From NCBI GenBank assembly GCA_040218735.1, contig JAVJQW010000008.1:64001-128000 (forward strand): DNA of 64,000 nucleotides. Reading direction: 5' to 3'. The notes beneath the pieces were generated by a model that saw only the letters and a list, made by a program, of their open reading frames with translations, ran no database searches and was not told where the DNA came from. The stretch's first letter is position 1, and each line of letters starts with the position of its first letter. The position numbers were made by a program, and so were the translations under genes. This document shows, piece by piece, positions 18,780 through 46,689 of this stretch. This stretch comes from Deltaproteobacteria bacterium. GTDB taxonomy: Bacteria > Myxococcota > Kuafuiibacteriia > Kuafuiibacteriales > Kuafuiibacteriaceae.

Positions 18780-20343
18780 CCAATGCCGTTCACTTAGCGG
18801 ACGGGCCCGCCTCGAGCTCCATCAGGCGGAGAGGGGCGCCTCGACGTAGGGCAGCGCGCCGGCGCCGCGGAGCGTCGCGTCCCTCGTCCGCCGTTTCGCC
18901 GGGCTGGTGAAGGAGGGGGGCCGCGGAGCGCGGTGCTCCGAAGGAGGGCCGCGACACCGGCTGCTATCGCTCTCACGAGCTGCCCTCCGCGCGTGCCGGT
19001 GGCGTCGGATGCCCTCCACGCCGCGGGCGCTCGTGACACACGTCCTGCCTGGGCTGGGTGGAGCGGCGCTCGTGAATCCTCCGAGCGATGAGGGCGCGAC
19101 CCAACACTTCGTTCGCGGCGTGAAGGTTGTGCGCCCGGCACAACAAGCGCATCTCCCGGACCACGCTCTTGGCGCCCAGCGCGCGGCCGCCCACGTGATC
19201 GAATTCGAGGTTCGACCGTTCGCTGCATCGCCGACCGTCCGGGCTCACGTACGTGCACTGCGCGCCATCGCGCGCGACCACCGCGCGGCGCGTTGCCGCC
19301 GGGACGTACGCTGCGCCCGCGGGTGCGTCCTCGGCGGGCTTCGACCGCGGACGACTCGTCTTTCCGTTCTTCCTCCTCTCCAGCTTCTCCACGTAGAGCG
19401 CGAGCGCCGCTTCGAAGATCTCCCCGATGTCGGTCCCAGGCGGGGTGAGCTCCTTGGCTCGATCCAAGAGCGCCTTCGCTTCGGCGCTCCCGTCGAAGCG
19501 AAAAGCGAACGTCTCCGCGGTCGCCGCCTCGACGCGGTCGTCACTGCTCTTCGCGCCTGGGAACTCGGTCGCGATCAGCATCTCGACCTCGGCCTTGGAT
19601 TTGTTTCGCGCCTGCTCGACGAGGCTGTGGGCGTTGTCGTCGTTCATGAACTTCGAGAGCTTCGCTACGCCCGTCATGTGCAGCTCACCGGTCGCGATCA
19701 TCTGGAAGACCTCGGGCACCCGCCGCGCCGCGCGCACCACGGCGACGCGCCGGCACGCCTGGTCCTCGGTCAGCCCGAGCCCCTCGACGCAGAACCGGAA
19801 CAGCGAGCTGAAGCCGCGCTCGATGTAGAGCTTGCGCCGCTCGATCTCCGCCATGAACCGGAGCGCCTGTACACCGCTATTCAGCTCCGCGCGAAGCGCT
19901 TCACGAAGTCCGCTCCGGAGATTGGTTTGGGTCATGCAAGACAGGTTGCAAGCTTTCGGGCTCATGCAGCGAAGGTATCATCGAGCCCTCGAAGCGCGAT
20001 TCGGCACGACTCGAGGATGGCGGTCTCAGACGTGCGAGGACGAGCGCCATGGACCGTCAGCGTCCGGCGATGCGTCCAAGCTCGAAAAACTTCGAAACGG
20101 ACTGCGTTCGTCAAGGAGATGGCCTGGACACGGCCTTCGATTCCGTCAACCCCTGCAACTCAACTTGCGCGACCGGCCAATTCCCGCTTACCAGCCGGCG
20201 AACCTCACACATCCATCGCAGCCCGGACCGTCGCCGGCGCGACTTGCGGCGCCTCTTCCGGCGGTTTTCGCGAAACGCGTCGAAGGCGCCGTGGTCGCTC
20301 GCGTGCCACGCCGCGAAGAGCCATGAAGCCGTGCTCCGAACGC
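18780..20343 (-). repeat. Copy 2 of the ~1.5-kb HNH-gene repeat element
   Basis: Aligns with 8220-9685 across coding and non-coding parts; begins about 3 bp after the helicase stop. Confidence 0.9.
18973..19935 (-). CDS. HNH endonuclease (DUF222-like, myxobacterial multicopy type)
   Basis: RKLYIERGFSSLFRFCVEGLGL; C-terminal RRAVVARDGAQCTYVSPDGRRC..LEFDH..LLCRAHN. Confidence 0.85.
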   Translation of the reverse strand: MTQTNLRSGLREALRAELNSGVQALRFMAEIERRKLYIERGFSSLFRFCVEGLGLTEDQACRRVAVVRAARRVPEVFQMIATGELHMTGVAKLSKFMNDDNAHSLVEQARNKSKAEVEMLIATEFPGAKSSDDRVEAATAETFAFRFDGSAEAKALLDRAKELTPPGTDIGEIFEAALALYVEKLERRKNGKTSRPRSKPAEDAPAGAAYVPAATRRAVVARDGAQCTYVSPDGRRCSERSNLEFDHVGGRALGAKSVVREMRLLCRAHNLHAANEVLGRALIARRIHERRSTQPRQDVCHERPRRGGHPTPPARAEGSS

Positions 20344-20360
20344 CCGAGCGGCGGCTTTCC

Positions 20361-20650
20361 GATTCACGAGCGCCGCTCCAACCAGCGAGGTGTACCCGCG
20401 AGCACAACCTTCACGTAGCCCGCGAGTTGGTGGGCCGCGCCCTCATCGATAAGCGGATTCACGAGCGCCGCTCTACCCAGCGCGCCCGTGTGAAGAACAT
20501 CCACCGCAGCGCTTGGAGGGCAGCGCGTGTCGCTGCGAGGCCCCCTGTTCACTCGTCGGCGAAGCGCTCACCGAGGCCGAGTCGCTCAGCGCCGCCAGCG
20601 CGGTGCGCTTCCGCGAGGAGCCCTACGCGGCCTCATCAGCCGCTCGATGT
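20361..20650 (+). pseudogene. Inverted remnant of the HNH element 3' end plus its trailer
   Basis: Encodes CTREHNLHVARELVGRALIDKRIHERRSTQ (compare CRAHNLHAANEVLGRALIARRIHERRSTQ); 20530-20650 aligns with the reverse complement of ~18810-18935. Confidence 0.8.
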
Positions 20651-20707
20651 CGAAGAGGGCAAAGGTAAAGGGCAAGTTCAAGTTCAAACGGCCCGACCTC
20701 GTCGCCG

Positions 20708-21295
20708 TTAGAGCACGAAGACGAGGACGTACATCGCCACCCACACCACGCCGACGAAGTGCCAGTAGACCGCCCAGAGGCGGACGCGGAGGTGGCGGGG
20801 GGCGGTGTAGCGGCCCTGGTAGGCGAAGACCGTGAGCACCGCGAGGGCGACGACGCCGAGCACGACGTGCAGGGCGTGGATGCCGGAGAGGCCGTAGAGG
20901 ACGGCGGCGTAGGCGCCGCGGTGGATGTCGAGGCCGGCGGCTTGGAGATCGACGCCAACGATATACTGAATGGCGACGAACACGATCCCCAGCGCCGTGG
21001 TCAGGGCCAACACGTGCGCGAGCAGCTTCGGCTGGCCCTGGCGCACCGCGCGTAGGCCGTACTCGAACGTGAAGGACGAGGCGAGCATGACGGCCGTGTT
21101 GAGCGTCGGGAGCGTGAGCTCGGGGAGGGGGAGGCCGATCGGCGGCCACTCGGGTGCGTTGAAGCGGACGGCGCCGTAGACGAGGAAGATGCTGACGAAC
21201 ATCATCGCCCACGACGCGATGAAGATGACCATGCCGAGGTAGGCCGTCTTCTTCTCTTCCGCGTACGGGGACGGGTAGCTGACGACGTCGCCCAT
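20708..21295 (-). CDS. ctaE: Heme-copper oxidase subunit III (second copy)
   Basis: GMVIFIASWAMMF, LNTAVMLASS, GIHALHV, YWHFVGVVW. Confidence 0.9.
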   Translation of the reverse strand: MGDVVSYPSPYAEEKKTAYLGMVIFIASWAMMFVSIFLVYGAVRFNAPEWPPIGLPLPELTLPTLNTAVMLASSFTFEYGLRAVRQGQPKLLAHVLALTTALGIVFVAIQYIVGVDLQAAGLDIHRGAYAAVLYGLSGIHALHVVLGVVALAVLTVFAYQGRYTAPRHLRVRLWAVYWHFVGVVWVAMYVLVFVL

Positions 21296-21336
21296 CGCCC
21301 TTTTCAGTCGGCGGTCCGACCCGCCGAGTCAACCGT

Positions 21337-21951
21337 TCAGGCGCCGAGGTCGGCCACGACCAAGGGGTGCAGCTGCGCGTGGGCGGCGTCCACGCGGCGG
21401 TTGTACTCGGTTGCGCCGAGGGCGCGGTCGTCGAGGATTCGCCGGATGCGCATCGGCCCGTAGCAGTAGGCCGCGACGGCGTGGGCGATGTCGCCGTCGA
21501 AGCGGCCGCGGAGCCAGGCGAGGTATTCGATCCCGATGAGGACGTTGTGCACGGGGTGTTCGAGCGTTCGCGGTCCGCGCCACCGGACGCCGGCGCGACG
21601 CGCGAAACTCTCGGCCGTGTTCGGGAGGAGCTGCATCAGGCCGATCGCGCCGACGGAGCTCTTCGCTTTGGTGCGGAAGCGGCTCTCGGTGGTGATCATC
21701 GCCAGCACCAACGCGGGGTCGATGCCGTGTCGCGCGGACTGGCTGTCGATCGCCTGCGCGACGCGTTCGCGCGTGACGGGGTGCCAGTAGGGCGCGCGCG
21801 CTTCGAGGACCTCGAGGATCGCGGCTTCGGGGTCGGGGTCCGCGATCGAGGTCGCGCGCGCGGCGTTCTTCAGCGCTTGCGCCACCTCGGATTCGTCGAA
21901 CGCGATGGGCTGGGTCGTCGCCACGAGCGTGAGCGTGATCGCACCGAGCAT
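21337..21951 (-). CDS. Lytic transglycosylase (SLT domain)
   Basis: IDPALVLAMITTESRF..SSVGAIGLMQL..AAYCYG; start uncertain (could extend to 22062). Confidence 0.88.
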   Translation of the reverse strand: MLGAITLTLVATTQPIAFDESEVAQALKNAARATSIADPDPEAAILEVLEARAPYWHPVTRERVAQAIDSQSARHGIDPALVLAMITTESRFRTKAKSSVGAIGLMQLLPNTAESFARRAGVRWRGPRTLEHPVHNVLIGIEYLAWLRGRFDGDIAHAVAAYCYGPMRIRRILDDRALGATEYNRRVDAAHAQLHPLVVADLGA

Positions 21952-22153
21952 CGTGCGCTCTTGGAATTGCAACCCCTGATCCAGTTGGAGTCGCGTCGTC
22001 GATCCCCCGACACATGAGGCCGACCTGTCGGCGTCGTGACGATCCCGCACAGGTGTCGTCATTCTGTCGCGCGACCTGAATCACGAAGTGCGCGGACGCA
22101 CGCGACGTCGGGTCCGCGTCCAATGTTCCCGACGCCGCGTGCGCCCCACGCGA

Positions 22154-22963
22154 TCACAAGGTGCGACGGGCCTTCTTCATCAGCTCGTCGTACCAACCGG
22201 CGACGGCGCCGCTCGCGCCGCGCGCCTCCTCGAACTTCGCGAGCTCCGCGTCGACCGCCTTCGCGAGGCCTTCGACGGTGCGCGGCCCGACGTACGGTCG
22301 ACCGTTCACGTAGAGCATCGGCGTCCCGCGCACGCCGATCCGCGCGAGGTTCTGGCGGTCACGCTCGAGACGCTGTTTGCACTCTGCGCCGTCGAGGTCC
22401 GCCGCGAACCTCTTCGTGTCGAGCCCGCTCTTCTTGGCGACTTCGATGATGGCGTCCTTGCCGAGCTCCTCGCGCTTCATCTGCGGACGCCCGCCGGTCG
22501 TCGACCACGCGGTGGCCCACAGGGCGTCGCTGAACGGTTCGAAGCGATCCTGCTTCGCGGCCGCGCACGTCGCGAGCGCCGCCGCCGTCGCGAGCTGCGG
22601 GTGCACGACGAACTGCTTCGACACCACGCGCAAGCTGTCTTGCCCCTCGTACTTGTCGATGAGCTGCGAGAGGATCGGCTCGACCAGCGCGCAGTACGGG
22701 CACGCGTACTCGTAGGCTTCGACGATCGTGACCTTTGCGTCGGCCGCGCCGCGGATCGCGTCGTGTTCGTCGACGGGGAGGTAGTAGGTGACGGAAGGAT
22801 CCGGGCGCTTCGGCTGCGGGCGCGCGGCGGGTCGTTGTTTCTCGACGGTCTCGACGCGCTCTTCGAGCTGGTCCACGCGCTCGGTGAGTTGGGCGACGCG
22901 GGGATCTGGGCCGCCGTCGCACGCGACGAGCGCGAGGGCTGAGAGGATGAAGGTTCGATTCAT
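22154..22963 (-). CDS. DsbA-family thioredoxin lipoprotein
   Basis: Lipobox LVAC; EYACPYC; GVRGTP. Confidence 0.9.
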   Translation of the reverse strand: MNRTFILSALALVACDGGPDPRVAQLTERVDQLEERVETVEKQRPAARPQPKRPDPSVTYYLPVDEHDAIRGAADAKVTIVEAYEYACPYCALVEPILSQLIDKYEGQDSLRVVSKQFVVHPQLATAAALATCAAAKQDRFEPFSDALWATAWSTTGGRPQMKREELGKDAIIEVAKKSGLDTKRFAADLDGAECKQRLERDRQNLARIGVRGTPMLYVNGRPYVGPRTVEGLAKAVDAELAKFEEARGASGAVAGWYDELMKKARRTL

Positions 22964-23212
22964 GACTGAGTTCTCCTGAGTCGGCGCGAACGAACGCGCC
23001 GGTCCACGACGCCCACCGAACCCCGAAGGGAGGGCGCGCGACGAACGACGAGAGGCCACGGCCGAGCGGGCCGGGGCGGTCACAGGGGATCGCAGCGATT
23101 CACGAGACGCCGACCGAAACCGACGACTCGACGACGGGTCCGAACGGACGAACACAACACATCGCGGCCGACGAGGGTCGACGGCGAAGTCATGAAAACG
23201 CTGCGATGAAAC

Positions 23213-23572
23213 TCAGGCGCGGGGAGGCCGGTCGATCCGGCGAAGGCGTCCGTCGTGCGCTCCGAGCGTGTCATCGAGCGCTTCGAGGGTGCCGCTACGC
23301 CAAGGGGCGTCCGGCGGGAGGACGATCGCGAACATCTCGACGCTGCGCTTCACGCTGCGCGGCCCCGGGACGGGGAGGCCACCGTTCGATTCGCTGAGGC
23401 AGGCGCGGTCCACGACACCGTCTGCGTCCACACAGAGCGCGCGCGGCGGCGGTTTCGGTGCGGGCGCCTCACACACCGTCAGCTCCTCGGTCCACACCGA
23501 CATCTGCGGCTCCGCCGGCTCCGTTGGGCCGGACAGCATCGCGAACAGGGTGGTGACGAGCGCGGAGATCAC
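23213..23572 (-). CDS. Small hypothetical exported protein
   Basis: 119-aa ORF with hydrophobic N-terminus, ending DRPPRA. Confidence 0.5.
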
Positions 23573-23685
23573 AGGACGATCGGGAACAGGACACTCGCTC
23601 TACGACGTCTATTCCCGCGCGGGTCCGAAAAGTTCCGGGGCCACCTTGTCCGGACCGAGCGACGTCCCTATCACGGGCGAACGCC

Positions 23686-24237
23686 ATGTCGCCGGAGCAG
23701 CAGAAGCGCGCGAACAAGTTCCTCAGCCTCGTGCTCCGACACCGCCCCGAGGTAGTCGGCATCGCGCTGGGCCCACAGGGCTGGGTCGACGTCGACGTGC
23801 TGCTCGCTGCGCTCGACGCCCACGGGCGTCGCCTCACGCGACGTGAGCTCGACGTGATCGTGCAGAACAACTCGAAGAAGCGGTTCCTCCTGTCCGAGGA
23901 CGGCCGCCGCATTCGCGCGAGCCAGGGGCACTCCGTGAAGCTCGACCTCGGGTACGAGCCGGTCGAGCCGCCCGACCTCCTCTTCCACGGCACCGCGGAG
24001 CGCTTCCTCGATGTGATCCGCCGCGAGGGCCTCCGCAAGATGCAGCGTCACCACGTGCACCTCTCGGCGAACGAAGCCACCGCGCGTGAGGTCGGCGCGC
24101 GCCACGGACGCCCGGTCGTGCTCCGCGTCGACGCCAAGACGATGCACGAACGCGGCGCGCAGTTCTTCTGCTCCGACAACGGCGTGTGGCTGACGGACGC
24201 CGTCGAGCCCGAGTTCCTCGCCGGTTTCTCGGACTAA
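23686..24237 (+). CDS. kptA: RNA 2'-phosphotransferase (Tpt1/KptA)
   Basis: [35 protein letters not shown]. Confidence 0.95.
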
Positions 24238-25808
24238 CGCGACGTGCGCGGGCCGCGAACGAAGACGCGGTAGGCCCAGGGCTCGAGCTCGAAGACGTCG
24301 CCCCCTCGCACCGTCACGGCTTCCTCGCTGAAGAGCTCCACGTAGTCGCCGTCGATCGAGCCGGCATTTTCGCTCGGCTCCAGACGCACGCCCGAGAGGT
24401 GGTGCGGTGAGAGGTTGAGCACGACGAGGACGGCGTCGTCGCCGTCGCGGCGCACGTAGGCGTACGCGTGTTCGGCGGGGGCCGTGTCGATCTTTCGGAA
24501 GTCGTCGAAGCCGACGTGGTGCAGCGCCGGGTTCGCGCGGAAGAGCTGCAGCAGCTTCGTGTAGAACGGCCGGTAGCCTTCGGGGTCGGACCAGTCGAGC
24601 TTCACCGCGGGGTCGTGCGTGAGCGGTGCGCTGTCGAGCACTTCGCCGTTCACGCGCACACGCATCCCGGCTTCTTGCCCGTCGAAGATCAGCGGCTTGC
24701 CCGGGAGGGTGCACGCGAGGACGGCGAAGGTTCGGATGCCTTCGCGGTAGCGATCCTGCAGCGTCCACACGCCGTTGTCGTCGTGGTTGTAGGTCATCCG
24801 CATCGAGAGCGCTTCGGGCGCGTCGAGGTACGGGACGAACTGGTCGAAGTAGAGCGCGTCGTCGATCGTCGTGACGGGTTGGTGTCCGTGCGCGACGTCG
24901 CCGAGGCGCGGGTACACGCTCCAGTCGTAGGTCATGTCGAAGACCGGGTGGTACTGGCGTCCGTTCGCCTCCGCGAGGAGGAACACGGGGCGGTCGACCT
25001 CGAGCGCGGAGCGCAGCTCGCGGAAGAACTCGATCGGCATGTGGTGGGCGAAGTCGACGCGGAAGCCGTCGATGTCGAACCGCTCGCGGAACGCCACCAT
25101 CTGATCCTGCATCCAACGCCACAGGTCGCGGTTCGAGTAGTCGAGCTGCGCGATCCACCGAAACTGCTCGCCGACGGAGCGGATGCGCCCGGCTTCGTCG
25201 CGCGCGTACCAGTCGGGGTGTTCGTCGATCAGCGGGTTGTCCCACGCGGTGTGGTTCGGCACCCAGTCGACGATGACGCGCATGTCGAGCGCGTGCGCCG
25301 CGTTCACCAGGTCGGTCAGATCCGCCGCCGCGCTCGCCTCCGTCCCGTCCGAGCCGTACTCGGGGTTGAGCTGGTCGTAACGTTTGATCGCGTAGGGGTT
25401 GCCGAATGGGGCGTCGATCGCCTCGCCACCGTTGACCGCGACGATGCTGCCGATCGCGTTCACCGGGAGGAGCCACACGATCCCGACGCCCAGCGCCTTG
25501 AGCTCCGGGAGCCGCGCCTCGACGCCCTTGAAGTTCCCTGCCTCCGAGAAGTGTCGAACGTAGAGCTCGTAGATCGGCTCGCGGTGCCGCCACTCGGCGA
25601 ACGGGACTTCGCGTCGCGGGGGCGCGGGTGGGTTCGTCCCCTTCGGCGCACCGATCGCCGTGAACGCCGTAGCCTCCACTGGCTCGAACGTGGGGACGGG
25701 CGTGGGTTCGACCTCGGACGGCGGCGCCTCGGCGGGCACCAACGGCTCCTCCGCGGGCGCGCAACCGAGGAAGGTCACGACAACGATCAGCGCTGACTTC
25801 GACGACAT
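24234..25808 (-). CDS. Alpha-amylase family (GH13) lipoprotein
   Basis: DWVPNHT, DGFRVD, LAEA, NHDDN catalytic regions; lipobox FLGC. Confidence 0.92.
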
Positions 25809-25912
25809 CGAATATCTCCTCGTCGCGTAGCGTCGATGGCTCGTCGTTCTTCGGTCGACGCGGTCCGCCGCCAAACATCCCACCGAAACCGTCGCGTGCT
25901 ACGGTCGGGGAC

Positions 25913-26767
25913 ATGGGGTCGGCGTCGCGAGCGAGCCGGACCACACTCCAGGTTCACGCCGTCGGAGGCGCGACCCCCAAGCGCCTCGTCACCAAGACGC
26001 CGACGCTCGTCGTCGGGATCGAAGCGGCCATCGCGGACGTCGAGGTGCGCAAGGCGCAATTCACGATCGACCGGTCGAGCTGCCTCGTCGTCCCCGCGCG
26101 TGCGCGCGTCGTGGTCTCCTCGTCGTCCGCGTCACGGGTCGCGACGATCGGGTTCGAGGCCGCGACCTTCGACGCGGTGGAGCGGACCTACCAACGACTC
26201 GGGTTCGAGCGCGACCGCTTCGACGATTGGCTCACGACCGCTGCGCTCCTCCCGCGCACGGTTTGGGTGCACGAGATCGTGCATCGATTCGTCTTCGAGC
26301 GGTGGGCGCTCGGCGAGGCGGACAACCAGGCGACGCGGTTCCTGGAGGTGGAGATCCTCAAGGAGATCTACTTCCTGTTCCGCGATCGCGACGCGGGCGC
26401 CGAGCGCTCGACGATCGTCCAGAAGCGGAGCGCTGTCCTCGAGCGCGCGGTGGCGTACATCGAGGCGCACGTGTTGGAGCCCTCCGACGTTGCGGCGCTC
26501 GCGCGCGCGGCGGGTGCGAGCGAGCGTACGCTGTTGAGGACCTTCCGCCGCGAGCTGTCGACGACGCCCGCGGCGTACTGGCGGACGCGGAAGCTCGACG
26601 AGGCGCTCGTGCTCCTGCGCGCCGGACGCGACTCGGTCGCGGAGGTCGCGGCGAAGGTCGGCTACGAGAACCCGACGGCGTTCGGGCACGCGTTTCGGTT
26701 GCGATTCAATCGCCCGCCGTCGGCGTTCCGGCCGCGCGCGGACGTACGTCCGGCGCCCGAGATCTAG
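25913..26767 (+). CDS. AraC-family transcriptional regulator
   Basis: C-terminal double HTH ..SVAEVAAKVGYENPTAFGHAFR. Confidence 0.92.
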   Translation: MGSASRASRTTLQVHAVGGATPKRLVTKTPTLVVGIEAAIADVEVRKAQFTIDRSSCLVVPARARVVVSSSSASRVATIGFEAATFDAVERTYQRLGFERDRFDDWLTTAALLPRTVWVHEIVHRFVFERWALGEADNQATRFLEVEILKEIYFLFRDRDAGAERSTIVQKRSAVLERAVAYIEAHVLEPSDVAALARAAGASERTLLRTFRRELSTTPAAYWRTRKLDEALVLLRAGRDSVAEVAAKVGYENPTAFGHAFRLRFNRPPSAFRPRADVRPAPEI

Positions 26768-26792
26768 GCTTCGATCTTGTCGAGGTGGTCGG

Positions 26793-26816
26793 GCCGACCC
26801 GCGGACGCGGGTCGGC
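26793..26816. terminator. Perfect 10-bp hairpin between convergent araC and coxI genes (candidate terminator)
   Basis: gccgacccgc-ggac-gcgggtcggc. Confidence 0.55.
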
Positions 26817-26822
26817 GAGCAG

Positions 26823-28616
26823 TCACGCGGACTGGGCTGCGGGGGCTTCGCCGCTGTCGGTCGCGCCGCCGCCTTCGGACGTGTCGCCCGCGGGGATCTC
26901 TTCGGTCTGGTACACGAAGTCGCGGCCGAGCTTCTTCATGTACTCGGGGTGCGAGAACTCGTGCGGACCGTGGTGGACCACCGGGATCGTGTCGAAGTTG
27001 TGCACCGGCGAGGGCGACGGGATCGTCCACTCGAGCGTGCCGACGTTCCACGGGTTCTGCTCCGCCTTCTTCCCGGCGAACACACTCTTGAAGAAGTTGA
27101 TCACGAAGACGACCTGGCCCGCGATCAGCACGAACGCGATGTGCGAGACCGCCGTGTTGAGCGGCTGGAGGTGCTTCAGGAACTCGTAGTGGTAGGGGTC
27201 GTAGAACCAGCGCGGCTGGCCGGCGAACCCGGCGATGAGCTGGCCGATGAACACGCCGTTCAGCCCGAGGAACGTGATCCAGAAGTGAATCTTCCCGAGC
27301 GTCGGGTCCATCATCCGCCCGAACATCTTCGGGAACCAGAAGGCGAGCGCCGCGAGGCTGCCGAGCAGCGCCGCCGAACCCATCGTCAGGTGGAAGTGGC
27401 CGACGACCCACATCGTGTCGTGCAGCTGGAGGTCCGTCGCGATCGTGCCGAGCGGCAGACCGGTCAGGCCGCCGATGCCGAACACGAAGATCGTCCCGAG
27501 CGCGTAGAGCATCGGGACCTCGAAGCGAATCGATCCCTTCCAGATGGTGTGCAGCCAATTGAGGAACAGAATCTCCGCCGGCACCGAGATGAACAGCGTG
27601 AAGATCATGAACGTCTGGCCGAGCAGCGGGCTCATGCCGGTGACGAACATGTGGTGGCCGTACACCACCGCGGACAGGACGCTGACCGCGATCATCGCGT
27701 AGACGGAGCCCTTGTACCAATACGCCGGCTTGCGGGCGAAGAACGACACCAGGTCGCTCACGAAGCCCCACGCCGGGAGGATCAGGATGTAGACCTCGGG
27801 GTGACCGAAGATCCAGAAGAGGTGCTGGAAGAGCAGCGGGTCACCGCCGCCGTTCACCGCCGACGAGCCGGACACGAAGAACTGCGTGCCGAACATCCGA
27901 TCCATCAGGAGCAGGAGGCCGGCCGAGCCGAGCACCGGCACGAACAGAACGTTGAGGATCGCCGTGAGCCAGAGGCCCCAGACGGTCAGCGGCATCCGGA
28001 AGTACGTCATCCCCGGCGCGCGCATGCGAATCACCGTGGTGACGTAGTTGACGCCGCCCATGATTGTCGCGATGCCCGTCACGAAGATCGCACCGACGAC
28101 CAGCGACTGACCGGCGCCCGGCATACCGACGTTGGTCGACAGCGGCGCGTAGGTCGTCCAGGCCGCGCCCGCCGCGCCCATCGGGACGACGAACGACGCG
28201 AGGATCATCAGCTGCGAGACGACGAAGATCCAAAACGACAGCGTGTTCAGCAGCGGGAACGCCATGTCGCGCGCGCCGATCTGCAGCGGGATGCAGAAGT
28301 TCCCGAACGCACCGATCATGATCGGCGTGATCGCCCAGAAGATCATGATCAGCCCGTGCATCGTGAACGTGCTGTTGTAGGCGGTCGGTGTCATCGCGCC
28401 GCCGTTGCTCGGGAAGAGCAGCCCGCCGAGGAGCGGGACCGGCTCGCCCGGGTACGCCCACTGCCACCGGATGAGGTAGGCGAGTGCGCCGCCGAGCGCG
28501 AGGAAGATCAGCCCTGCCCAGAGGAACTGCTTCGCGATGACCTTGTGGTCATACGACCAGATGTACTTCGAGATGAAGCTGGTCGGGGGTGCGTGAATTG
28601 GCTGGAGCTCGACCAT
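26823..28616 (-). CDS. ctaD: Cytochrome c oxidase subunit I (A-family-like, divergent)
   Basis: TMHG, ARDMAFP, GHPEVY, GHHMF, HDT..GHFH. Confidence 0.96.
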   Translation of the reverse strand: MVELQPIHAPPTSFISKYIWSYDHKVIAKQFLWAGLIFLALGGALAYLIRWQWAYPGEPVPLLGGLLFPSNGGAMTPTAYNSTFTMHGLIMIFWAITPIMIGAFGNFCIPLQIGARDMAFPLLNTLSFWIFVVSQLMILASFVVPMGAAGAAWTTYAPLSTNVGMPGAGQSLVVGAIFVTGIATIMGGVNYVTTVIRMRAPGMTYFRMPLTVWGLWLTAILNVLFVPVLGSAGLLLLMDRMFGTQFFVSGSSAVNGGGDPLLFQHLFWIFGHPEVYILILPAWGFVSDLVSFFARKPAYWYKGSVYAMIAVSVLSAVVYGHHMFVTGMSPLLGQTFMIFTLFISVPAEILFLNWLHTIWKGSIRFEVPMLYALGTIFVFGIGGLTGLPLGTIATDLQLHDTMWVVGHFHLTMGSAALLGSLAALAFWFPKMFGRMMDPTLGKIHFWITFLGLNGVFIGQLIAGFAGQPRWFYDPYHYEFLKHLQPLNTAVSHIAFVLIAGQVVFVINFFKSVFAGKKAEQNPWNVGTLEWTIPSPSPVHNFDTIPVVHHGPHEFSHPEYMKKLGRDFVYQTEEIPAGDTSEGGGATDSGEAPAAQSA

Positions 28617-28625
28617 GTCGTTTTC

Positions 28626-29471
28626 CTAGATCTTCTTCCACGCCCAGCCCCAGTGGGCCTCGGCGTCTTTCTCGTCCCAGACGGCCTCGGAGTCGCGGAC
28701 CTTCAGCTCGACCCATTCGTCGAACGCCTCCTTCGACACGACCTTCAGCGTCCCGGCCATCTGGTAGTGGTTCGCACCGCAGTTCTGCACGCAGACGATC
28801 GGGAACTCACCCTCTTCTTTGCCCTGGAACCACATGAGGTTGATCATCCCGGGCATCGCGTCCTGCTTGATGCGGAAGTGCGGCAGCGCAAACGTGTGAA
28901 TCACGTCGGGCGACGCGAGCTGCAGCAGCACCGGCGTGTTCACCGGCACGACGAGCTCGTGGTCGGAGAGGGCGTCGTCGGACGTGTTGAACTTGCCGTC
29001 CTTGCCCGCCAGGCGCATCTGCCACATCCACTGGCGCCCCTGGACCTCGACCTTCAGCGTCTGCGGATCCTTGTCGACCTTCTCGAAGTTCCAGAACGTC
29101 CCGAAGACGTCCTTCGTCGAGTTCACGAAGAGGTTGCCGTCGACGATCACGAAGATGACCGCGGAGATGGCCATCGCCATCATCACCGCGTTCTTGCCGT
29201 CGCCGGTGTCGTACTCGGCCGAGTGTTTCTTCCCGTGCTTGATGAAGGCCGAGATCATGATGAAGCACATGATCGCGAACAGCACCGCCGAGAAGAGGTT
29301 GGTGATGTTGATGAGCCAGTCGATGTTGTGGCCGTGCTCGGAGGCATCGTGCGGCGCCTCCCAGGCCTTCGGCGCGGCCATGGCCACCGCCGACGTCGCC
29401 CAGACCACCAACCCGGCGGGGATCGCCGCGAGGTGTCGCATGTTTCGGATCTTCATTTGGAGATCTCCCAT
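28626..29471 (-). CDS. ctaC: Cytochrome c oxidase subunit II (CuA)
   Basis: QWMW, DVIH, CVQNCGANHYQM; start uncertain. Confidence 0.93.
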   Translation of the reverse strand: MGDLQMKIRNMRHLAAIPAGLVVWATSAVAMAAPKAWEAPHDASEHGHNIDWLINITNLFSAVLFAIMCFIMISAFIKHGKKHSAEYDTGDGKNAVMMAMAISAVIFVIVDGNLFVNSTKDVFGTFWNFEKVDKDPQTLKVEVQGRQWMWQMRLAGKDGKFNTSDDALSDHELVVPVNTPVLLQLASPDVIHTFALPHFRIKQDAMPGMINLMWFQGKEEGEFPIVCVQNCGANHYQMAGTLKVVSKEAFDEWVELKVRDSEAVWDEKDAEAHWGWAWKKI

Positions 29472-29481
29472 TCGAACGAAA

Positions 29482-29718
29482 TCACTTGGCTTGGGGGGAC
29501 GTGGAGTCCGCGACGGACTGGGTCCCGATCTTTCGCATGACGACGATGGCGGTGCCGGCGACCACGAAGGGCATGCCGAGCATCCCGGCGAGGATGAACC
29601 AGCTGCCGAGGCCCGCCTTGTCGTTGAGCGCGCACATCGGACAGGCGTACGCCTCCGGCGCCGCGAAGAGCGCGAGGAGGAACAGTCCGAGGTAGAGCGC
29701 CGTCTTCATGCCGTTCAC
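29482..29718 (-). CDS. Small membrane protein of the oxidase operon (CPMC motif)
   Basis: Signal peptide, ACPMC, one TM helix; overlaps the subunit IV stop. Confidence 0.7.
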   Translation of the reverse strand: MNGMKTALYLGLFLLALFAAPEAYACPMCALNDKAGLGSWFILAGMLGMPFVVAGTAIVVMRKIGTQSVADSTSPQAK

Positions 29719-30020
29719 CCGACTGCGAGTCGCCAGGTCGCCTCCGCGATGAGCCCGAAGGCGTAGAGCGCGGGGAAGAAGAAGGGCAGCGCGACGGTCA
29801 GCTTGAGGTGCCTCGTCTCGTGGTTGAGGTGCATGAAGAACCAGCCGACCGTCCAGGCCTTGGCGACCGCGAGGAGGACCAACGCGCTGCCGAGGCCGAA
29901 CTTGCTGATGCCCGGGATGTAGACGATCCCGACCTCGAGGACGGTGAGGATCGTCAGCGCCGCGAACACCATGAGGTATTGCTTGCGGCTGACGTGAGGA
30001 GTGCTTGCAGTGCTAGCCAT
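29715..30020 (-). CDS. ctaF: Cytochrome c oxidase subunit IV
   Basis: LTILTVLEV, LAVAKAWTVGWFFMHL. Confidence 0.9.
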   Translation of the reverse strand: MASTASTPHVSRKQYLMVFAALTILTVLEVGIVYIPGISKFGLGSALVLLAVAKAWTVGWFFMHLNHETRHLKLTVALPFFFPALYAFGLIAEATWRLAVG

Positions 30021-30039
30021 CTTCGATGATCTCCCGGTC

Positions 30040-30690
30040 CTAGAGGAGGTAGACGAACGTGAAGACGAGGATCCAGACCAGGTCGACGAAGTGCCAGAAC
30101 AGGCCCGCGATCTCGATCTCGTTGTAGTTGCCGTCGTCGTACTTGCCCATGATCGCGCGGATCAGGGTGATGCTGAGGTAGATGACGCCCGTCAGGACGT
30201 GCATCCCGTGGAAGCCGGTGATGCAGTAGAAGGTCGTCGCGCGGTGGCCCTGGCCGAAGATCAGGCCCTCGGCGATCAGCCCCTCGTGGTGGAAGATCGC
30301 CTCGAACGTCCCGAAGTACTCCTGCATCTGGCCGCACAGGAAGAGCACGCCGCCGAGCACGGTGATGGCGAGCCACTTGATCATGCCCTTGCGGTCCTTT
30401 TCGACGCAGGCCGCGTAGGACATGACCATGCTGACGCTGGAGCAGATCAGAAGAAACGTGAGGCCGGCGGTGAAGTTGATGCCGAACTCGGGCGCACCTT
30501 CGGCGACCCACTCGCCTTTGGTGCCTCCGCGCAGGATGCCGTAGGCGAGCAGTAGGCCGCCAAACGAGAAAGCATCCGAAAGGAGGAAGACCCACATCCC
30601 GATCTTTCCGGCCGTGGCGCGCCCGTATTGCGCGTCTTCCGGATACTCGTGGGGCAGGATCGCAGGGTGATGATGGTCGGCTGCGCTCAT
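30040..30690 (-). CDS. ctaE: Cytochrome c oxidase subunit III
   Basis: GMWVFLLSD, LICSS, ITGFHGMHV, LFWHFVDLVW. Confidence 0.93.
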   Translation of the reverse strand: MSAADHHHPAILPHEYPEDAQYGRATAGKIGMWVFLLSDAFSFGGLLLAYGILRGGTKGEWVAEGAPEFGINFTAGLTFLLICSSVSMVMSYAACVEKDRKGMIKWLAITVLGGVLFLCGQMQEYFGTFEAIFHHEGLIAEGLIFGQGHRATTFYCITGFHGMHVLTGVIYLSITLIRAIMGKYDDGNYNEIEIAGLFWHFVDLVWILVFTFVYLL

Positions 30691-30892
30691 AGATTCGGTT
30701 CCGTCCGTCGGCTTTCGCGAGGGCCCTCCCGGGCCCGAAGCCGCACGCCAGATAGCACGGGGCCATGGACCCGACAAGACTCTGCGACAGGGGTCTTGAT
30801 CGGTTCTGATGCTCAGGGAAATCCGCTGCATAGCCGCGCCGCCTTGTCGGCTTGACTCGACCCCGTGCGCCCACTAAACGTCGCGCGTCCTC

Positions 30893-31825
30893 GTGACCTC
30901 GAATAGCGAAGAGCTCGCCCCGCAGGCATCGGGGCTCGGCGTCGCGCGGCTCTCCTCCGCGGAGCGCGCGCGCGCGTACTACGAGCTCGCCAAGCCGAAC
31001 CTCTCGATGCTCGTCGTCGTGACGAGCATCCTCGGCTTCTATCTCGCGTCGAGCGCCACCGAGCACCTCGACTGGGCGCGCCTGATCTACCTCGTGACGG
31101 GTACGGCGCTGACCGCAGCGGGTGCGTGTGCGCTCAACATGTACATCGAGCGCGACATCGACGCGCGCATGATGCGCACGAAGGGCCGCCCGATCCCCTC
31201 GGGGCGTTTGTCCGCGCAGCAGGCGCTCGCGTTCAGCCTCGTCGTGTTCACGTGGGGCTTCTTGCAGCTGCTGGTGTTCTGCGGCCCGTACCCCGCGTTC
31301 CTCTCGCTCGCGACCGCGCTGATCTACGCGTTCGTGTACACACCCGCGAAGCGTCGCGGTCCGATCTCCATCTGGATCGGCGCGATACCGGGCGCGATCC
31401 CGCCGGTGATGGGCTGGGCGGCCGTGCGCGGTGAGATCGGGTGGGGCGGCCTGTCGCTCTTCCTCATCCTGTTCGCGTGGCAGTTCCCGCACTTCCTGGC
31501 GCTCGCCTATATGTACGAGGAGGACTACCGCCGCGGCGGGTTCAACTTCCTCTTCGCGGACGATCCCGACGGTCAGAAGGTCGGACGCGCCATCGCGTTC
31601 GGCACGCTCCTCGTGCACTCCGCGAGCCTCGCGCCGTACGTGCTCGGCCTCGTGGGTGGGGTCTACCTCATCGGGGCGATCCTCGCCGGCGCGTTCTTCG
31701 TGTGGGCGGGGGCGCGCGTCGCCGTCGAGTCCACGCTCCCGCGCGCGCGTCAGGCGTTCTTCGCGTCGATCACCTACCTACCGGTGCTGCTCGCTTCGAT
31801 GGTGTTGGATCGCCTCGTAAGCTGA
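30893..31825 (+). CDS. ctaB: Protoheme IX farnesyltransferase (heme O synthase)
   Basis: ELAKP, NMYIERDIDARMMRTKGRPIPSG, YTPAKR, WQFPHF. Confidence 0.95.
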   Translation: MTSNSEELAPQASGLGVARLSSAERARAYYELAKPNLSMLVVVTSILGFYLASSATEHLDWARLIYLVTGTALTAAGACALNMYIERDIDARMMRTKGRPIPSGRLSAQQALAFSLVVFTWGFLQLLVFCGPYPAFLSLATALIYAFVYTPAKRRGPISIWIGAIPGAIPPVMGWAAVRGEIGWGGLSLFLILFAWQFPHFLALAYMYEEDYRRGGFNFLFADDPDGQKVGRAIAFGTLLVHSASLAPYVLGLVGGVYLIGAILAGAFFVWAGARVAVESTLPRARQAFFASITYLPVLLASMVLDRLVS

Positions 31826-31867
31826 GCTTGCGCCCATCACGGCTCTCCGCTAGAAGGCACCCCGAAA

Positions 31868-32881
31868 ATGGTGCGAGCTGGTCTTCTCTCGAACCGATTG
31901 GCGTGGGGGCTCGTCCCCGCCGCGCTCCTGACCCTGTCTTGCGACACGATGGAGCCCATCACCGAGCCGTTCACGCTGGCCGACGAAACCGTCGTCTCCG
32001 TGGCGCAGCTCGAGAACGGTCGCGAGAAGTACGTCCTGTACTGCCGCGCCTGCCACGGTGAGCAGGGCGATGGGCGCGGACCGGCCGGCATCGGCATGCG
32101 TCCGCCGCCCCGCAACTTCAAGGAAGGTTACTTCAAGTTCGGTGGCGTCGCCGCGGGTGAGCTTCCGCCGGACTCGGAGATCAAGCGCATCGTGCTCGGC
32201 GGCCTCGAAGGCACCGCGATGTTGCCGTGGAAGATTCCGGAGAAGGATCTCGACGACGTCATCCAGTACATCAAGACGTTCGCGGTCGACGAAGATGGCG
32301 CGAACATCTGGCAGGAAGACGAGCCCGGCGAGCTCATCGAGATCCCGGAGGATCCGTGGGCGGGCAAGAAGGCCGAGGCCATCGCGCGCGGCAAGAGCGT
32401 CTATCACGGGCTGGCGCAGTGCCTGAAGTGCCACCCGGCGTACGGCACGTACCAGGAGATCTGGGACGCCACCGCCGAGGCGACCGGCCAGGGCAGCACG
32501 TCCGCGTTCCGCAAAGGCATGTACTACCCGGAGGCGAAGTACGCCGACGCGTACGGCCACAAGCTCCTTCCGCCGGACTTCACGCGCCACCCGATCAAGG
32601 CGGGCGCCACGCCGAAGGACATCTATCGCACGATCGCCGCCGGCATCGGCGGAACCGCGATGCCGATGTGGAAGGGCTCGATCCCGGACGAGGACATCTA
32701 CGCGATCTCGTACTTCGTGGCGGACCTGTACACGATGGACGGCGAGGCCTCGAAGAAGGCGCGTGAGGCCTGGCTCGCGCAGCCCGAGTTCGTGCCGCCG
32801 ACGCCGCCCGAAGAGGGTGCCGAAGGCGCCGAAGGCGAGGACGCTGAAGGCGACGACGACGACGAGGCCGAAGAGCAGTAG
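31868..32881 (+). CDS. Diheme cytochrome c lipoprotein
   Basis: CRACH and CLKCH; GTAM twice; lipobox LSC. Confidence 0.9.
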   Translation: MVRAGLLSNRLAWGLVPAALLTLSCDTMEPITEPFTLADETVVSVAQLENGREKYVLYCRACHGEQGDGRGPAGIGMRPPPRNFKEGYFKFGGVAAGELPPDSEIKRIVLGGLEGTAMLPWKIPEKDLDDVIQYIKTFAVDEDGANIWQEDEPGELIEIPEDPWAGKKAEAIARGKSVYHGLAQCLKCHPAYGTYQEIWDATAEATGQGSTSAFRKGMYYPEAKYADAYGHKLLPPDFTRHPIKAGATPKDIYRTIAAGIGGTAMPMWKGSIPDEDIYAISYFVADLYTMDGEASKKAREAWLAQPEFVPPTPPEEGAEGAEGEDAEGDDDDEAEEQ

Positions 32882-32928
32882 GCCGCCGTCCCTTGAAAGG
32901 CGCGCTCGCCCACGTTATGAGCGCGCCC

Positions 32929-33738
32929 ATGTTCGCACGCCGAATCACCCCCATCCTCTTCGTCTCCGGCGCGCTCGCGCTGGGCGCCTGCAGCAAGGGC
33001 GACAAGAAGCCCGCCGCCGACAAGAAACCCGCCGCGGCCAAGCCCGCCGAGAAGCCGGCGGAGAAGCCCGCCGAAAAACCTGCGGAGAAGCCCGCCGAGG
33101 TCGCCGGCAAGGGTGGCTCCATCAAGGGCGTCGTGAGCTTCGACGGCGCTGCGCCGAAGCCCGCGAAGATCGACATGAAGAAGGACCCGAAGTGCGTCAA
33201 GACGAACAAGGACGCCATGCGCTCGGACGCGAAGATCGCGGACGGGAAGGTCGCGGAGGTCTTCGTCCACATCAAGAGCGGCCTGCCCGACAAGAAGTGG
33301 GACACGCGTGAGGACGAGGTCGTGCTCGACCAGGTCGGCTGCCTCTACAACCCGCGCGTGGTCGGCCTGCAGGAAGACCAGAAGCTGACGATCGTGAACA
33401 GCGACCCGCTCCTGCACAACGTCCACGCCACGCCGAAGCGCGGTGAGTTCAACATGGCGATGCCGACGCAGGGCATGAAGCTGCAGAAGTCCTTCAAGAA
33501 GAAGGAGCTGGGCTTCGACATCAAGTGCGACGTGCACGCGTGGATGAAGGCGTGGGGCTACGTCGTGGATCACCCGTTCTTCGCGACGTCCGCCGCGGAC
33601 GGGTCGTTCGAGATCAAGGACGTCCCGGCCGGCAAGTACACGGTCGAGTTCATCCACCCGACGCTCGGCGCGCAGGAGGCCGAGGTCACGGTGACCGACG
33701 GCGAGGCGATGGCTTCCGCCACCTTCAAGGCGGGCTGA
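32929..33738 (+). CDS. Lipoprotein with cupredoxin-like / carboxypeptidase-regulatory-like domains
   Basis: LGAC lipobox, PAEK repeats, DQVGC..NSDPLLHNVH..CDVHAWM. Confidence 0.8.
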   Translation: MFARRITPILFVSGALALGACSKGDKKPAADKKPAAAKPAEKPAEKPAEKPAEKPAEVAGKGGSIKGVVSFDGAAPKPAKIDMKKDPKCVKTNKDAMRSDAKIADGKVAEVFVHIKSGLPDKKWDTREDEVVLDQVGCLYNPRVVGLQEDQKLTIVNSDPLLHNVHATPKRGEFNMAMPTQGMKLQKSFKKKELGFDIKCDVHAWMKAWGYVVDHPFFATSAADGSFEIKDVPAGKYTVEFIHPTLGAQEAEVTVTDGEAMASATFKAG

Positions 33739-33801
33739 TCCGGGGCGCCTGCCCAAATAGAGGTAGGCAACGCGGGGGTGTCGGTACTAGGTGACCGATC
33801 G

Positions 33802-34893
33802 ATGTCGGTCGCCGATCTCCCGCACGTCAACGCCAGCATCAACACGGTCGTCGCGCTCCTCCTCATCGCCGGCCTCGTGCTCATCAAGCAGGGCCGGCGC
33901 GACGCGCACCGAAACGTCATGGTCGCGGCGATCGTGCTGTCGGGCCTCTTCCTCGCGAGCTACCTGACCTACCACTACCTGCACGGCTCGACGAAGTTCC
34001 AAGGCCAGGGCGCGATCCGGCCGGTCTACTTCACGATCCTCCTCACGCACACCGTGCTCGCGGTCGTGAACCTGCCCTTCATCGTCGTGACGGTCTGGCG
34101 CGCCTACAAGGGCCAGTTCGCCAAACACCGCAAGGTCGCGAAGTACACGTACTGGGTCTGGCTGTACGTCGCGATCACCGGGCCGATCGTCTACCTGCTG
34201 CTCTATCAGCTCTACCCGGGCGACCGGGGCGCGCAGGCCTTCGCCGACGCGCAGAAGATCCACCACGACGGCGACCGCAAGGCGTCGCTCGCCGCGTACC
34301 AAACGGCGGCGGAGCAGGGGCACGTCGGCGCCGGGTGTTACGCGGCGGTGATCGAGGCGACCCTCGCCGACACGAAGACCTCCACCGCGGGGCTCGTCGG
34401 TCGGCTCGCCGAGCACCCGGACGACGTGCACTGTCTGACGCTCCTCGGGCGCGAGCACACCTATGCGAAGGAGCTCGACACGGCGAAGGCCGAGCTGTCG
34501 CGCGCGGTCGAGCTCGCTCCGGACGACGCCTTCGCCCACGCGAGCCTCGCGTTCGCCTACTTCCGCGGCTACGAGTACGAGGAGGCCGCGGCCGAGTTCG
34601 AACGCGCCGTCGCGCTCGACGCGACCGTCGCGATGTACGTCTACAACGCGGGCTACGCGCACTTCCTCGGCGGGCACTACGCCAAGGCGCGGCCGCACCT
34701 CGCGAAGGCGCTCGAGATGGGCATCGCCGACGAGGTCGCCGCGCGGGCGAAGGAGGACCTCGGCGTCATCGACGGCAGCATCTGGATCTGCCCGATGCAC
34801 CCCGACGAGCGCGGCGGAACGGGTGACACCTGTGGCCGCTGCAAGATGGACCTCGAACCCGTCTCCCGCGGAGTCGTGAGCAGCAAGGAGTGA
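33802..34893 (+). CDS. DUF420 membrane protein fused to TPR repeats and a heavy-metal-binding motif
   Basis: LPHVNASIN..HRNVM..YLTYH..ILLTHTVLA..WLYVAITG; TPR helices; ICPMHP..CGRCKMDL. Confidence 0.85.
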   Translation: MSVADLPHVNASINTVVALLLIAGLVLIKQGRRDAHRNVMVAAIVLSGLFLASYLTYHYLHGSTKFQGQGAIRPVYFTILLTHTVLAVVNLPFIVVTVWRAYKGQFAKHRKVAKYTYWVWLYVAITGPIVYLLLYQLYPGDRGAQAFADAQKIHHDGDRKASLAAYQTAAEQGHVGAGCYAAVIEATLADTKTSTAGLVGRLAEHPDDVHCLTLLGREHTYAKELDTAKAELSRAVELAPDDAFAHASLAFAYFRGYEYEEAAAEFERAVALDATVAMYVYNAGYAHFLGGHYAKARPHLAKALEMGIADEVAARAKEDLGVIDGSIWICPMHPDERGGTGDTCGRCKMDLEPVSRGVVSSKE

Positions 34894-46670: not shown

Positions 46671-46689
46671 GTGATCGATTCCCTGTGTC

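What the first reader, a model, noticed from the sequence alone, without database searches (positions are those of the whole stretch)
26823..29471. A-type heme-copper oxidase lacking the canonical K proton channel
Seen: subunit I keeps all six His ligands, the GHPEVY Glu/Tyr and the D-channel Asp/Asn (RDMAFP.LN). Helix VIII reads ISVPAEILFLNW instead of IAVPTGIKIFSW, giving T359A, G360E and K362L (R. sphaeroides numbering). The PRR pair is PRW. Subunit II lacks the TM2 E-x-x-W K-channel entry Glu, and CuA has CVQNC instead of CxExC. Known: K362 is essential for O2 turnover in A-family oxidases. Inference: coordinated loss in two subunits points to a distinct subfamily with another proton route (the new Glu) or another substrate such as NO.
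Basis: partly seen in the sequence, partly recalled or inferred. Interest (0 to 1): 0.7.

Follow-up and report, generated by a model that had tools for sequence, protein, structure and literature searches.

The report
Lysine-less cytochrome oxidase of myxobacteria
This gene cluster encodes an intact oxygen-reducing respiratory enzyme from a widespread, biochemically unstudied lineage that has lost a textbook proton-channel lysine and carries its own conserved polar residues instead; the lineage is already catalogued in print, but how it delivers protons is untested.

Summary
Observation confirmed: subunit I has T359A/G360E/K362L; subunit II lacks E101. It is a clade trait: 0 of 222 relatives have K362, while all six His ligands and the cross-link Tyr stay. 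The clade holds at 98/96 with trait columns removed and occurs in 56 of 201 genomes of the phylum.

PRW (9 of 222) and the CuA Glu change are incidental. The near-invariant novelties are D288, W283, S/T304, S344, Y319 and a subunit II TM2 Asp (45 of 45).

NO reduction is unlikely: both NOR motifs fail, and only 4 of 56 carrier genomes have nirK/nirS.

Basal members match exactly the K-less 'Oligoflexia' A1 row of Degli Esposti 2021, so the lineage is catalogued but unassayed. The scan noted similar oxidases on other DNA before.

Best reading: a cytochrome c:O2 oxidoreductase with a lysine-free substitute channel. Stigmatella, Corallococcus and Hyalangium members have also lost the D-channel entry, which makes this testable. 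Side lead: a second K-less clade tracks nir genes (15 of 24 vs 8 of 177).

The parts
26823..28616 (-). Subunit I (coxA/ctaD), A1-type heme-copper oxidase without K362
   Evidence: PF00115 441 bits; TIGR02891 566 bits, under its cut-off of 671; model matches A-family structures, TM 0.8-0.9
27567..27587 (-). Helix VIII codons S344 (Rs A356), A347 (T359), E348 (G360), L350 (K362)
   Evidence: S 221/222, A or S 218/222, E 154/222, K 0/222
27660..27791 (-). Helix VI-VII: cross-link Y276, W283, D288 (Rs H300), S304 (Rs M316), S315, Y319 (Rs W331)
   Evidence: Y 222/222, W 220/222, D 221/222, S or T 217/222 (0/131 in K-bearing rows), S 219/222, Y 219/222
28626..29471 (-). Subunit II (coxB): CuA ligands intact (H, CxxxCxxxHxxM), no fused cytochrome c, no E101
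29139..29141 (-). Subunit II D111, a conserved Asp in the outer half of TM2 (V-D-G)
   Evidence: 45 of 45 non-redundant clade subunits II with TM2; not in the K-bearing rows shown
29482..29718 (-). 78-aa membrane ORF with CPMC, no family; found at the same place in 9 related loci
29715..30020 (-). Subunit IV (caa3-type)
   Evidence: PF03626, TIGR02229 over cut-off
30040..30690 (-). Subunit III, first short copy (likely start 30690; longest ORF to 30831)
   Evidence: PF00510; upstream of II-I in relatives
20708..21295 (-). Subunit III, second short copy, displaced 5.5 kb by unrelated genes
   Evidence: PF00510; directly after subunit I in 16 of 18 loci L001-L018
30893..31825 (+). Heme O synthase (ctaB), divergent from the cox genes; the only ctaB match in the genome
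   Evidence: TIGR01473 over cut-off
31868..32881 (+). Diheme cytochrome c (CRACH, CLKCH), likely electron donor to CuA (inferred)
   Evidence: present in 15 of 18 loci L001-L018, a paralogue sits in the genome's cbb3 operon
32893..33738 (+). Lipoprotein with cupredoxin-like H...CxxHxxM motif, possible second carrier (inferred)
   Evidence: motif; in 5 of 18 loci
33778..34893 (+). DUF420 membrane protein fused to TPR, common oxidase-operon accessory

Best explanation
A cytochrome c:O2 oxidoreductase (probably aa3-type) of a lysine-free A1 subfamily, a second oxidase beside the genome's ordinary A2/ACIII enzyme. Electrons go from the linked diheme cytochrome c to CuA, the low-spin heme and the high-spin heme-CuB site (cofactor sites shown by sequence; donor inferred). 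O2 is split with the His-Tyr cofactor as in all O2-reducing members (follows from the kept Y276). The D channel works as usual in this member. The proton that K362 normally brings to the tyrosine in the reductive phase comes instead through a rebuilt polar path in the same region: entry from the cytoplasm at D288/S304/N353 between helices VI-VIII, then T312/S315/S344 to Y276 (inferred from conservation, no distances measured). E348, or in other members a Glu at Rs 349, and the subunit II Asp are added polar or charge-compensating groups at the helix VIII/subunit II TM2 face, not the core of the path. I put O2 reduction at about 0.87 and this route, given O2, at about 0.55.
For: Active site intact in the whole clade: His ligands 221-222/222, Y288 222/222, E286 218/222. 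New polar residues are fixed where K-bearing enzymes are non-polar: Rs 316 S/T 217/222 vs 0/131, Rs 356 S 221/222 vs 3/131, Rs 300 D 221/222. The old S299 has decayed (G85, S74, T34, others). Degli Esposti 2021 class the basal members as having a 'KC-like' channel on some of the same columns. 33 of 222 members have also lost D132, among them proteins named Stigmatella aurantiaca, Corallococcus exiguus, Hyalangium and Pyxidicoccus, yet keep the active site, D288 and S344; the D-less loci read keep the subunit II Asp too. They need a non-D route. This enzyme is the only heme-copper oxidase found in G012 (91% complete) and G054 (92%), with no cytochrome bd; G058 (97%) has only two K-less ones and no bd. 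ctaB is adjacent, and ctaA is in 5 of 5 carrier genomes tested. Helix VIII and subunit II TM2 are neighbours (PMC10095113, PMC6115622).
Against: No activity, spectrum or structure exists. L350 and F351 put bulky non-polar groups where the lysine was, which could seal the channel. K319M/K362M blocks heme a3 reduction in model enzymes (PMC12901375). The A356S/K-loss link across lineages is not statistically independent (4 pairs: 2 same way, 0 opposite, p 0.5). The sole-oxidase genomes are incomplete MAGs. The D-less branch is long and has also lost the Mg ligand D412 in most rows read, so it may be degenerate rather than informative. The subunit II Asp lies in the outer half of the membrane, which fits a periplasmic route as well.
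Confidence: 0.5

Rival explanations
1. O2 reductase that takes every proton through the D channel. The K region is sealed; the new polar residues only tune the tyrosine and heme a3 environment, E348 giving charge compensation.
For: D132/N121/N139/N207/E286 are kept in most of the clade (189, 198, 191, 218, 218 of 222). K362 is replaced by L/M/V/F/I in 221 of 222. The D channel can carry up to seven of eight protons (PMC12901375). The 2020 preprint proposes the same for acidophile enzymes.
Against: Members without D132, N121 and N139 exist and are conserved across genera. It does not explain the near-fixed gain of S/T304 and D288 at the cytoplasmic end.
Confidence: 0.2
2. O2 reductase that draws some chemical protons from the periplasm along the helix VIII/subunit II TM2 interface (subunit II D111 -> Rs 349/353 -> S344 -> E348 -> Y276). 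It conserves little energy and serves as an oxygen or electron sink.
For: Subunit II Asp 45/45 in the outer half of TM2. Glu at Rs 360 or 349, mutually exclusive (154 / 19 / 0 both), and S356 lie on one stripe of an ideal helix (60-100 degrees from T359, K362 at -60). A second K-less clade also has a TM2 Asp and extra Glu. Most carriers examined have another oxidase for efficient respiration.
Against: 49 of 222 have no Glu on the stripe. Most members keep a complete D channel, which implies pumping. The helical wheel ignores the P358 kink; no 3D distances.
Confidence: 0.17
3. NO reductase derived from the A family.
For: A carboxylate near the binuclear site recalls NORs; A-, B- and C-family oxidases have some NO reductase activity (PMC11214002).
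Against: Y288 kept 222/222, whereas the NORs listed in Dataset S1 of PMC11214002 replace it by Q, N or E. Both NOR motifs of PMC3084760 fail: H272-P-E-V-Y, and I343 (220/222, V 2) at the helix VIII Glu column. nirK/nirS in 4 of 56 carrier genomes vs 19 of 145 others (p 0.32); none found in G000, nor nosZ. The same test picks up a strong link for another clade (15 of 24), so it has power.
Confidence: 0.07
4. Not a turnover oxidase: a peroxidase-like or very slow enzyme, as laboratory K-channel mutants are, kept for stress protection.
For: K-channel block leaves the peroxidase half-cycle intact (PMC10095113). The D-less branch shows wider decay.
Against: Full subunit set, dedicated cytochrome c, strong conservation in 222 sequences, only oxidase found in G012 and G054.
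Confidence: 0.06

Closest known systems
'Oligoflexia' A1 COX1 group without K channel ('no, KC'; Halobacteriovorax WP_114706215, Bacteriovorax stolpii WP_102242033), Degli Esposti et al. 2021, PMC8239418 Tables S1 and S7
   Same: My Bacteriovoracaceae loci L016-L018 give the published Halobacteriovorax residue row letter for letter (YSFSNDGTSS) and are the basal branch of the window's clade (98/96). A1 type, no extra N-terminal helices, Lys and subunit II Glu lost, Asp at E292.
   Different: The window reads YSLANDWSAS and has E348. The tables list no myxobacterial member of the group and have no columns for Rs 356, 360, 331 or the subunit II Asp. No biochemistry.
Canonical A1 aa3 oxidases (P. 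denitrificans 1ar1, R. sphaeroides 1m56, mycobacterial CtaD)
   Same: Fold (TM 0.8-0.9), six His ligands, His-Tyr, E286, D-channel Asp/Asn, CuA, subunits III and IV; about 40% identity.
   Different: No K362, T359 or E101(II); S299 not conserved in the clade; new D288, S304, S344, E348, Y319 and D111(II); below the TIGR02891 cut-off.
K-less oxidases of acidophilic iron oxidisers and Thioclava (bioRxiv 2020.03.01.968255) and Ferrigenium straubiae COX (bioRxiv 10.64898/2026.01.22.701106)
   Same: Coordinated loss of the Lys and of the subunit II Glu with a kept D channel.
   Different: Those of the 2020/2021 papers have extra N-terminal helices and keep T351 and E292; the window has 12 helices, A347 and D288. 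Not placed in my tree (no sequences at hand).
B-family ba3 and C-family cbb3 oxidases (lysine-free single channels)
   Same: Show that a K-type channel can work with hydroxyl residues only; S304 and S315 fall on the cbb3 'KC' columns S244 and Y255.
   Different: ba3 channel residues T312/S309/Y248/E15(II) correspond to L350/A347/S287/none here; the cbb3 helix VII Tyr is S315; the D channel is present.
cNOR, qNOR, eNOR, bNOR, sNOR, nNOR (PMC11214002, PMC3084760)
   Same: Heme-copper fold; a helix VIII carboxylate in most members.
   Different: Tyr kept; Glu is five positions from the NOR column; no nir association.

Membership tests
Heme-copper O2 reductase, type A1 (Sousa 2011, PMC3084760) | Six His ligands and Tyr-I in helix VI | tested here: met
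Heme-copper O2 reductase, type A1 | D channel: Asp124, Asn199, Asn113, Asn131, Ser134, Glu278 (Pd numbers) | tested here: met
   D117, N190, N106, N124, S127, E274
Heme-copper O2 reductase, type A1 | D channel: Tyr35 and Ser193 | tested here: not met
   F31 and T184; F also in 48 of 131 K-bearing rows, so a tolerated change
Heme-copper O2 reductase, type A1 | K channel: Lys354, Thr351, Ser291, Tyr280 | tested here: not met
   L350, A347; S287 present here but not conserved in the clade. So A1-derived, not canonical A1
Heme-copper O2 reductase, type A1 | O2 reduction with proton pumping; hemes a/a3 | not testable with these tools
   ctaB adjacent and ctaA in the genome allow heme A; heme type not shown
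'Oligoflexia' K-less A1 group (PMC8239418) | A1 motif, no extra N-terminal helices, Lys and COX2 Glu lost, Asp at E292, hydroxyl at KC columns S244 and Y255 | tested here: met
'Oligoflexia' K-less A1 group (PMC8239418) | One clade with the Bacteriovoracaceae enzymes | tested here: met
   98/96 with trait columns dropped, LG+G4, 63 rows; Bacteriovoracaceae MAG loci stood in for the two published accessions, which I did not fetch
B-family (ba3) alternative K channel | Thr, Ser, Tyr at Lys354, Thr351, Ser291; no D channel | tested here: not met
   L350, A347, S287; D channel present
C-family (cbb3) | Cross-link Tyr in helix VII, no D channel | tested here: not met
   S315 at the Y255 column. NCBI's name 'cbb3-type subunit I' for these proteins is a mislabel
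Nitric oxide reductases | No active-site Tyr; motifs H-x-arom-x-E and HH-x-arom-arom-x17-E | tested here: not met
   Y276 kept; I343 at the Glu column
Nitric oxide reductases | NO reduction, FeB | not testable with these tools
   indirect only: 4 of 56 carrier genomes have nirK/nirS

The most novel reading that the evidence does not exclude
The clade is an A-family oxygen reductase that replaced the K channel by a carboxylate relay across subunits (subunit II TM2 Asp plus a helix VIII Glu/Ser stripe), possibly open to the periplasm. Its Stigmatella/Corallococcus/Hyalangium branch, which has lost the D-channel entry as well, would then run O2 chemistry with neither textbook channel: a third proton route in heme-copper oxidases and a living parallel to the A-to-B transition.
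Probability: 0.2. Interest if true: 0.8.

Novelty: new variant of a known kind. Interest (0 to 1): 0.45.

Why it matters
Why A-family oxidases need a separate lysine channel for one or two of eight protons is a long-standing question, studied almost only with laboratory mutants that lose turnover. This clade offers hundreds of natural K362-free enzymes with an intact active site, in 56 of 201 sampled genomes of the phylum, with graded states (Glu at 360, at 349 or neither; D channel kept or lost) and members in cultured, harmless myxobacteria. One purified enzyme would show which residues can stand in for the lysine and what that costs in pumping. Surprise is moderate: K-less A-type oxidases and this lineage's basal members are already tabulated in print, and the scan has met several such clades. 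The proteins are often mislabelled 'cbb3-type' in NCBI, which distorts genome-based inference of oxygen affinity.

Tried and rejected
Serine 356 as the ba3 S309 equivalent: my first guess from recall; rejected, Table 2 of PMC12901375 puts S309 at T359 and T312 at K362.

E348 as the defining replacement of K362: rejected, 68 of 222 lack it. PRW and the CuA Gln as part of the syndrome: rejected.

Independent co-evolution of A356S with K loss: 38 of 46 non-K, non-Q rows vs 2 of 50 K rows have Ser in a 106-row set, but only 4 independent pairs exist, p 0.5. Suggestive only.

Heme b3 in place of a3 because G360E might fill the farnesyl groove (contact recalled, from no call): not testable; adjacent ctaB and a compensating Gly/Ala at Rs 392 (215 of 222) weaken it.

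AlphaFold model (pTM 0.83): confirms the fold, but coordinates do not reach the script box and pLDDT is under 50 at 254-273 and 323-332, so no distances were measured. No complex prediction was sent: subunits I and II are a textbook pair.

Expression: RNA-run contigs X18-X20 cover the region in short, shallow pieces, oxidase and non-oxidase genes alike; no evidence for or against transcription.

Promoter/terminator scan 26500-31200: nothing. Plasmid collection: no member of the clade, best identity about 43%. The plasmid hits read (L106, L107, L110) were a K->Q lineage, not the acidophile group.

Myxobacterial papers (passages) list cox operons but say nothing of proton channels. Ten paper searches found no biochemical study of the clade; the hit on the lineage came only from a supplement.
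Full report
Observation. The two ORFs are intact. Subunit I aligns without gaps to P. denitrificans 1ar1 through helix VIII, giving T359A, G360E, K362L in R. sphaeroides (Rs) numbers (Pd/Rs equivalences from Table 2 of PMC12901375; Rs = window residue + 12 in this region). All metal ligands, E286, Y288 and the D-channel Asp/Asn are present; Pd Y35 is F31. Subunit II has intact CuA ligands and no Glu near E101. An AlphaFold model (pTM 0.83) matches A-family structures at TM 0.8-0.9.

Context. The cluster holds subunits III-IV-small ORF-II-I on the minus strand and ctaB, a diheme cytochrome c, a cupredoxin-like lipoprotein and DUF420 on the plus strand. A second subunit III lies 5.5 kb downstream; it follows subunit I directly in 16 of 18 related loci, and the cytochrome c is present in 15 of 18. 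An independent DNA contig (run X2) covers 20639-35500 in the same order. The genome also has an ordinary K-bearing A2 oxidase behind an ACIII-like cluster (C64), a cbb3 oxidase (C53), cytochrome bd and ctaA. No nirK, nirS or nosZ was found in it. Named relatives are mostly Myxococcota.

The clade. Of 513 aligned domains, 464 covered the core and 401 were unique below 97% identity; 222 were assigned to the clade by nearest reference with the trait columns left out. None has K362 (L187, M19, V5, F5, I5, E1). Y288 is in 222, the His ligands in 221-222, E286 in 218. A maximum-likelihood tree of 63 chosen rows (LG+G4, trait columns dropped, one distant B-family outgroup) gives the clade 98/96, with Bacteriovoracaceae at its base; deeper forks are open. 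The K state changes six times on that tree, so loss of the lysine is recurrent. In 201 genomes of the phylum, 56 score 761 bits or more against the clade profile, the next 618. I read the motifs in 37 of the 56; 19 rest on score.

What replaces the lysine. E348 is in 154 of 222. Nineteen have Glu at Rs 349 instead, none has both, 49 have neither. The near-invariant gains are others: S344 (221; 3 of 131 K-bearing rows), D288 (221), W283 (220), Y319 (219; 1 of 131), S/T304 (217; 0 of 131), S315 (219), Gly/Ala at Rs 392 (215), and an Asp in the outer half of subunit II TM2 (45 of 45). S299 of the old channel has decayed. PRW is in 9 of 222, and the CuA Glu is also missing in most K-bearing Bacteroidota loci, so both are incidental. 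Thirty-three members have lost D132 too; proteins named Stigmatella aurantiaca, Corallococcus exiguus, Hyalangium and Pyxidicoccus lack D132 and N139, mostly N121, and the Mg ligand D412, yet keep the active site, D288 and S344.

Substrate. Both NOR motifs of PMC3084760 fail, and the NOR families in Dataset S1 of PMC11214002 lack the Tyr. nirK or nirS occurs in 4 of 56 carrier genomes and 19 of 145 others (18 of 144 without the unpublished G165; p 0.32); kin are not independent. The enzyme is the only heme-copper oxidase found in G012 and G054, which show no bd; G058 has only K-less ones. These are 91-97% complete assemblies, so absence is not proven. O2 is the likely substrate.

Mechanism. 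Best reading (0.5): an O2 reductase whose reductive-phase proton enters from the cytoplasm at D288/S304/N353 and reaches Y276 through hydroxyl residues, with E348 and the subunit II Asp as added polar groups. The cofactor sites and the conservation are shown; the path is inferred. Rivals: D channel only (0.2), periplasmic relay through the subunit II Asp (0.17), NO reductase (0.07), peroxidase-like (0.06). The D-less branch argues against D-only. Against my reading: non-polar L350/F351 may seal the region, the D-less branch may be decaying, the S356 correlation has too few independent events, and no distance was measured.

Prior knowledge. K-less A-type oxidases are in print for acidophilic iron oxidisers (bioRxiv 2020.03.01.968255: passages and section 7; its supplements are closed and list more K-less sequences) and Ferrigenium (passages). 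Tables S1 and S7 of PMC8239418 (read whole; main text as passages; supplement text part 3 of 8 and passages; figures not seen) list an A1 group 'Oligoflexia: Bacteriovorax and other taxa, K-channel no, KC'. Its Halobacteriovorax row equals my L016-L018 letter for letter. The lineage is therefore catalogued, with a KC-like channel proposed, but the tables list no myxobacterial member and not the Glu, S356 or the subunit II Asp. Other papers were seen as passages only: PMC11214002 (plus Dataset S1 and rows of S6/S8; SI appendix unreadable), PMC3084760, PMC8079940, PMC8361435, PMC12901375, PMC10095113, PMC6115622, PMC2129111, PMC2330069, PMC11841059, PMC3707914. Ten searches gave no biochemical study; subscription journals are largely missing from the library. 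Earlier scan notes describe several K-less oxidases, one with a buried acid in subunit II (seen after my own result); whether any is this clade I could not tell (searches showed no close match).

Side lead. A second K-less A1 clade (WAHHQF; Glu at Rs 361 and in helix IX; Asp in subunit II TM2) is in 24 of the 201 genomes (motifs read in 10). Fifteen of the 24 carry nirK or nirS against 8 of 177 others (14 of 23 without G165). In G019, G040, G072 and G100 it is the only heme-copper oxidase found, with no bd. That clade, not the window's, is the better candidate for an A-family enzyme tied to NO.

Verdict. A real, conserved, uncharacterised variant of a known kind. Interest 0.45.

Noticed in passing
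L086, L087, L154-L161 (G019, G002, G058, G036, G184, G062, G100, G190, G115, G146): Second K-less A1 clade (WAHHQF, S-x-P-x-A-E, Glu in helix IX, Asp in subunit II TM2) in 24 of 201 genomes; 15 of 24 carry nirK/nirS vs 8 of 177 others, including all 4 nirS genomes (one of the 15, G165, is unpublished). Often the only heme-copper oxidase found. Candidate for a Tyr-retaining NO-linked enzyme.
   Followed up: partly
L141-L151; P0273-P0292: Subclade in cultured myxobacterial genera lacking both the K channel and the D-channel entry (D132, N139, mostly N121) and mostly the Mg ligand D412; subunits III-a and IV gave no match near the gene in the six loci L146-L151.
   Followed up: partly
P0133/L152, P0150, P0181, P0235/L106/L107/L110, P0250: At least four further K-less A lineages: SIPS-II, SIPF with Glu at Rs 353 or 360, K->Q with N207E, and an A2 one. 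Most have Ser at Rs 356.
   Followed up: partly
window 21337-26767: Five unrelated genes (lytic transglycosylase, DsbA-like, KptA 2'-phosphotransferase, alpha-amylase, AraC regulator) separate coxA from the second coxC; the two are adjacent in most relatives.
   Followed up: partly
window 29482-29718 (-): 78-aa membrane ORF with a CPMC motif between subunits IV and II, no family, kept in 9 related loci; possible copper-handling subunit.
   Followed up: no
window 32893-33738 (+): Lipoprotein with a cupredoxin-like H...CDVHAWM motif; four paralogues elsewhere in the genome (C41, C13, C14, C8).
   Followed up: no
window 43683-46778 (-): 1031-aa protein with a long collagen-like repeat (PF01391), GC 0.81.
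   Followed up: no
window 13232-18777 (+): UvrD/AddA-like helicase-nuclease followed by a second UvrD-like helicase.
   Followed up: no
window 20000-20640: Repeated or variable stretch: high depth in run X2 at 20000-20516, and a relative's contig skips 20441-20639.
   Followed up: no
P0003, P0021, P0045, P0064 and others: NCBI names many members 'cbb3-type cytochrome c oxidase subunit I'; they fall below the CtaD model's cut-off and are not C family.
   Followed up: yes
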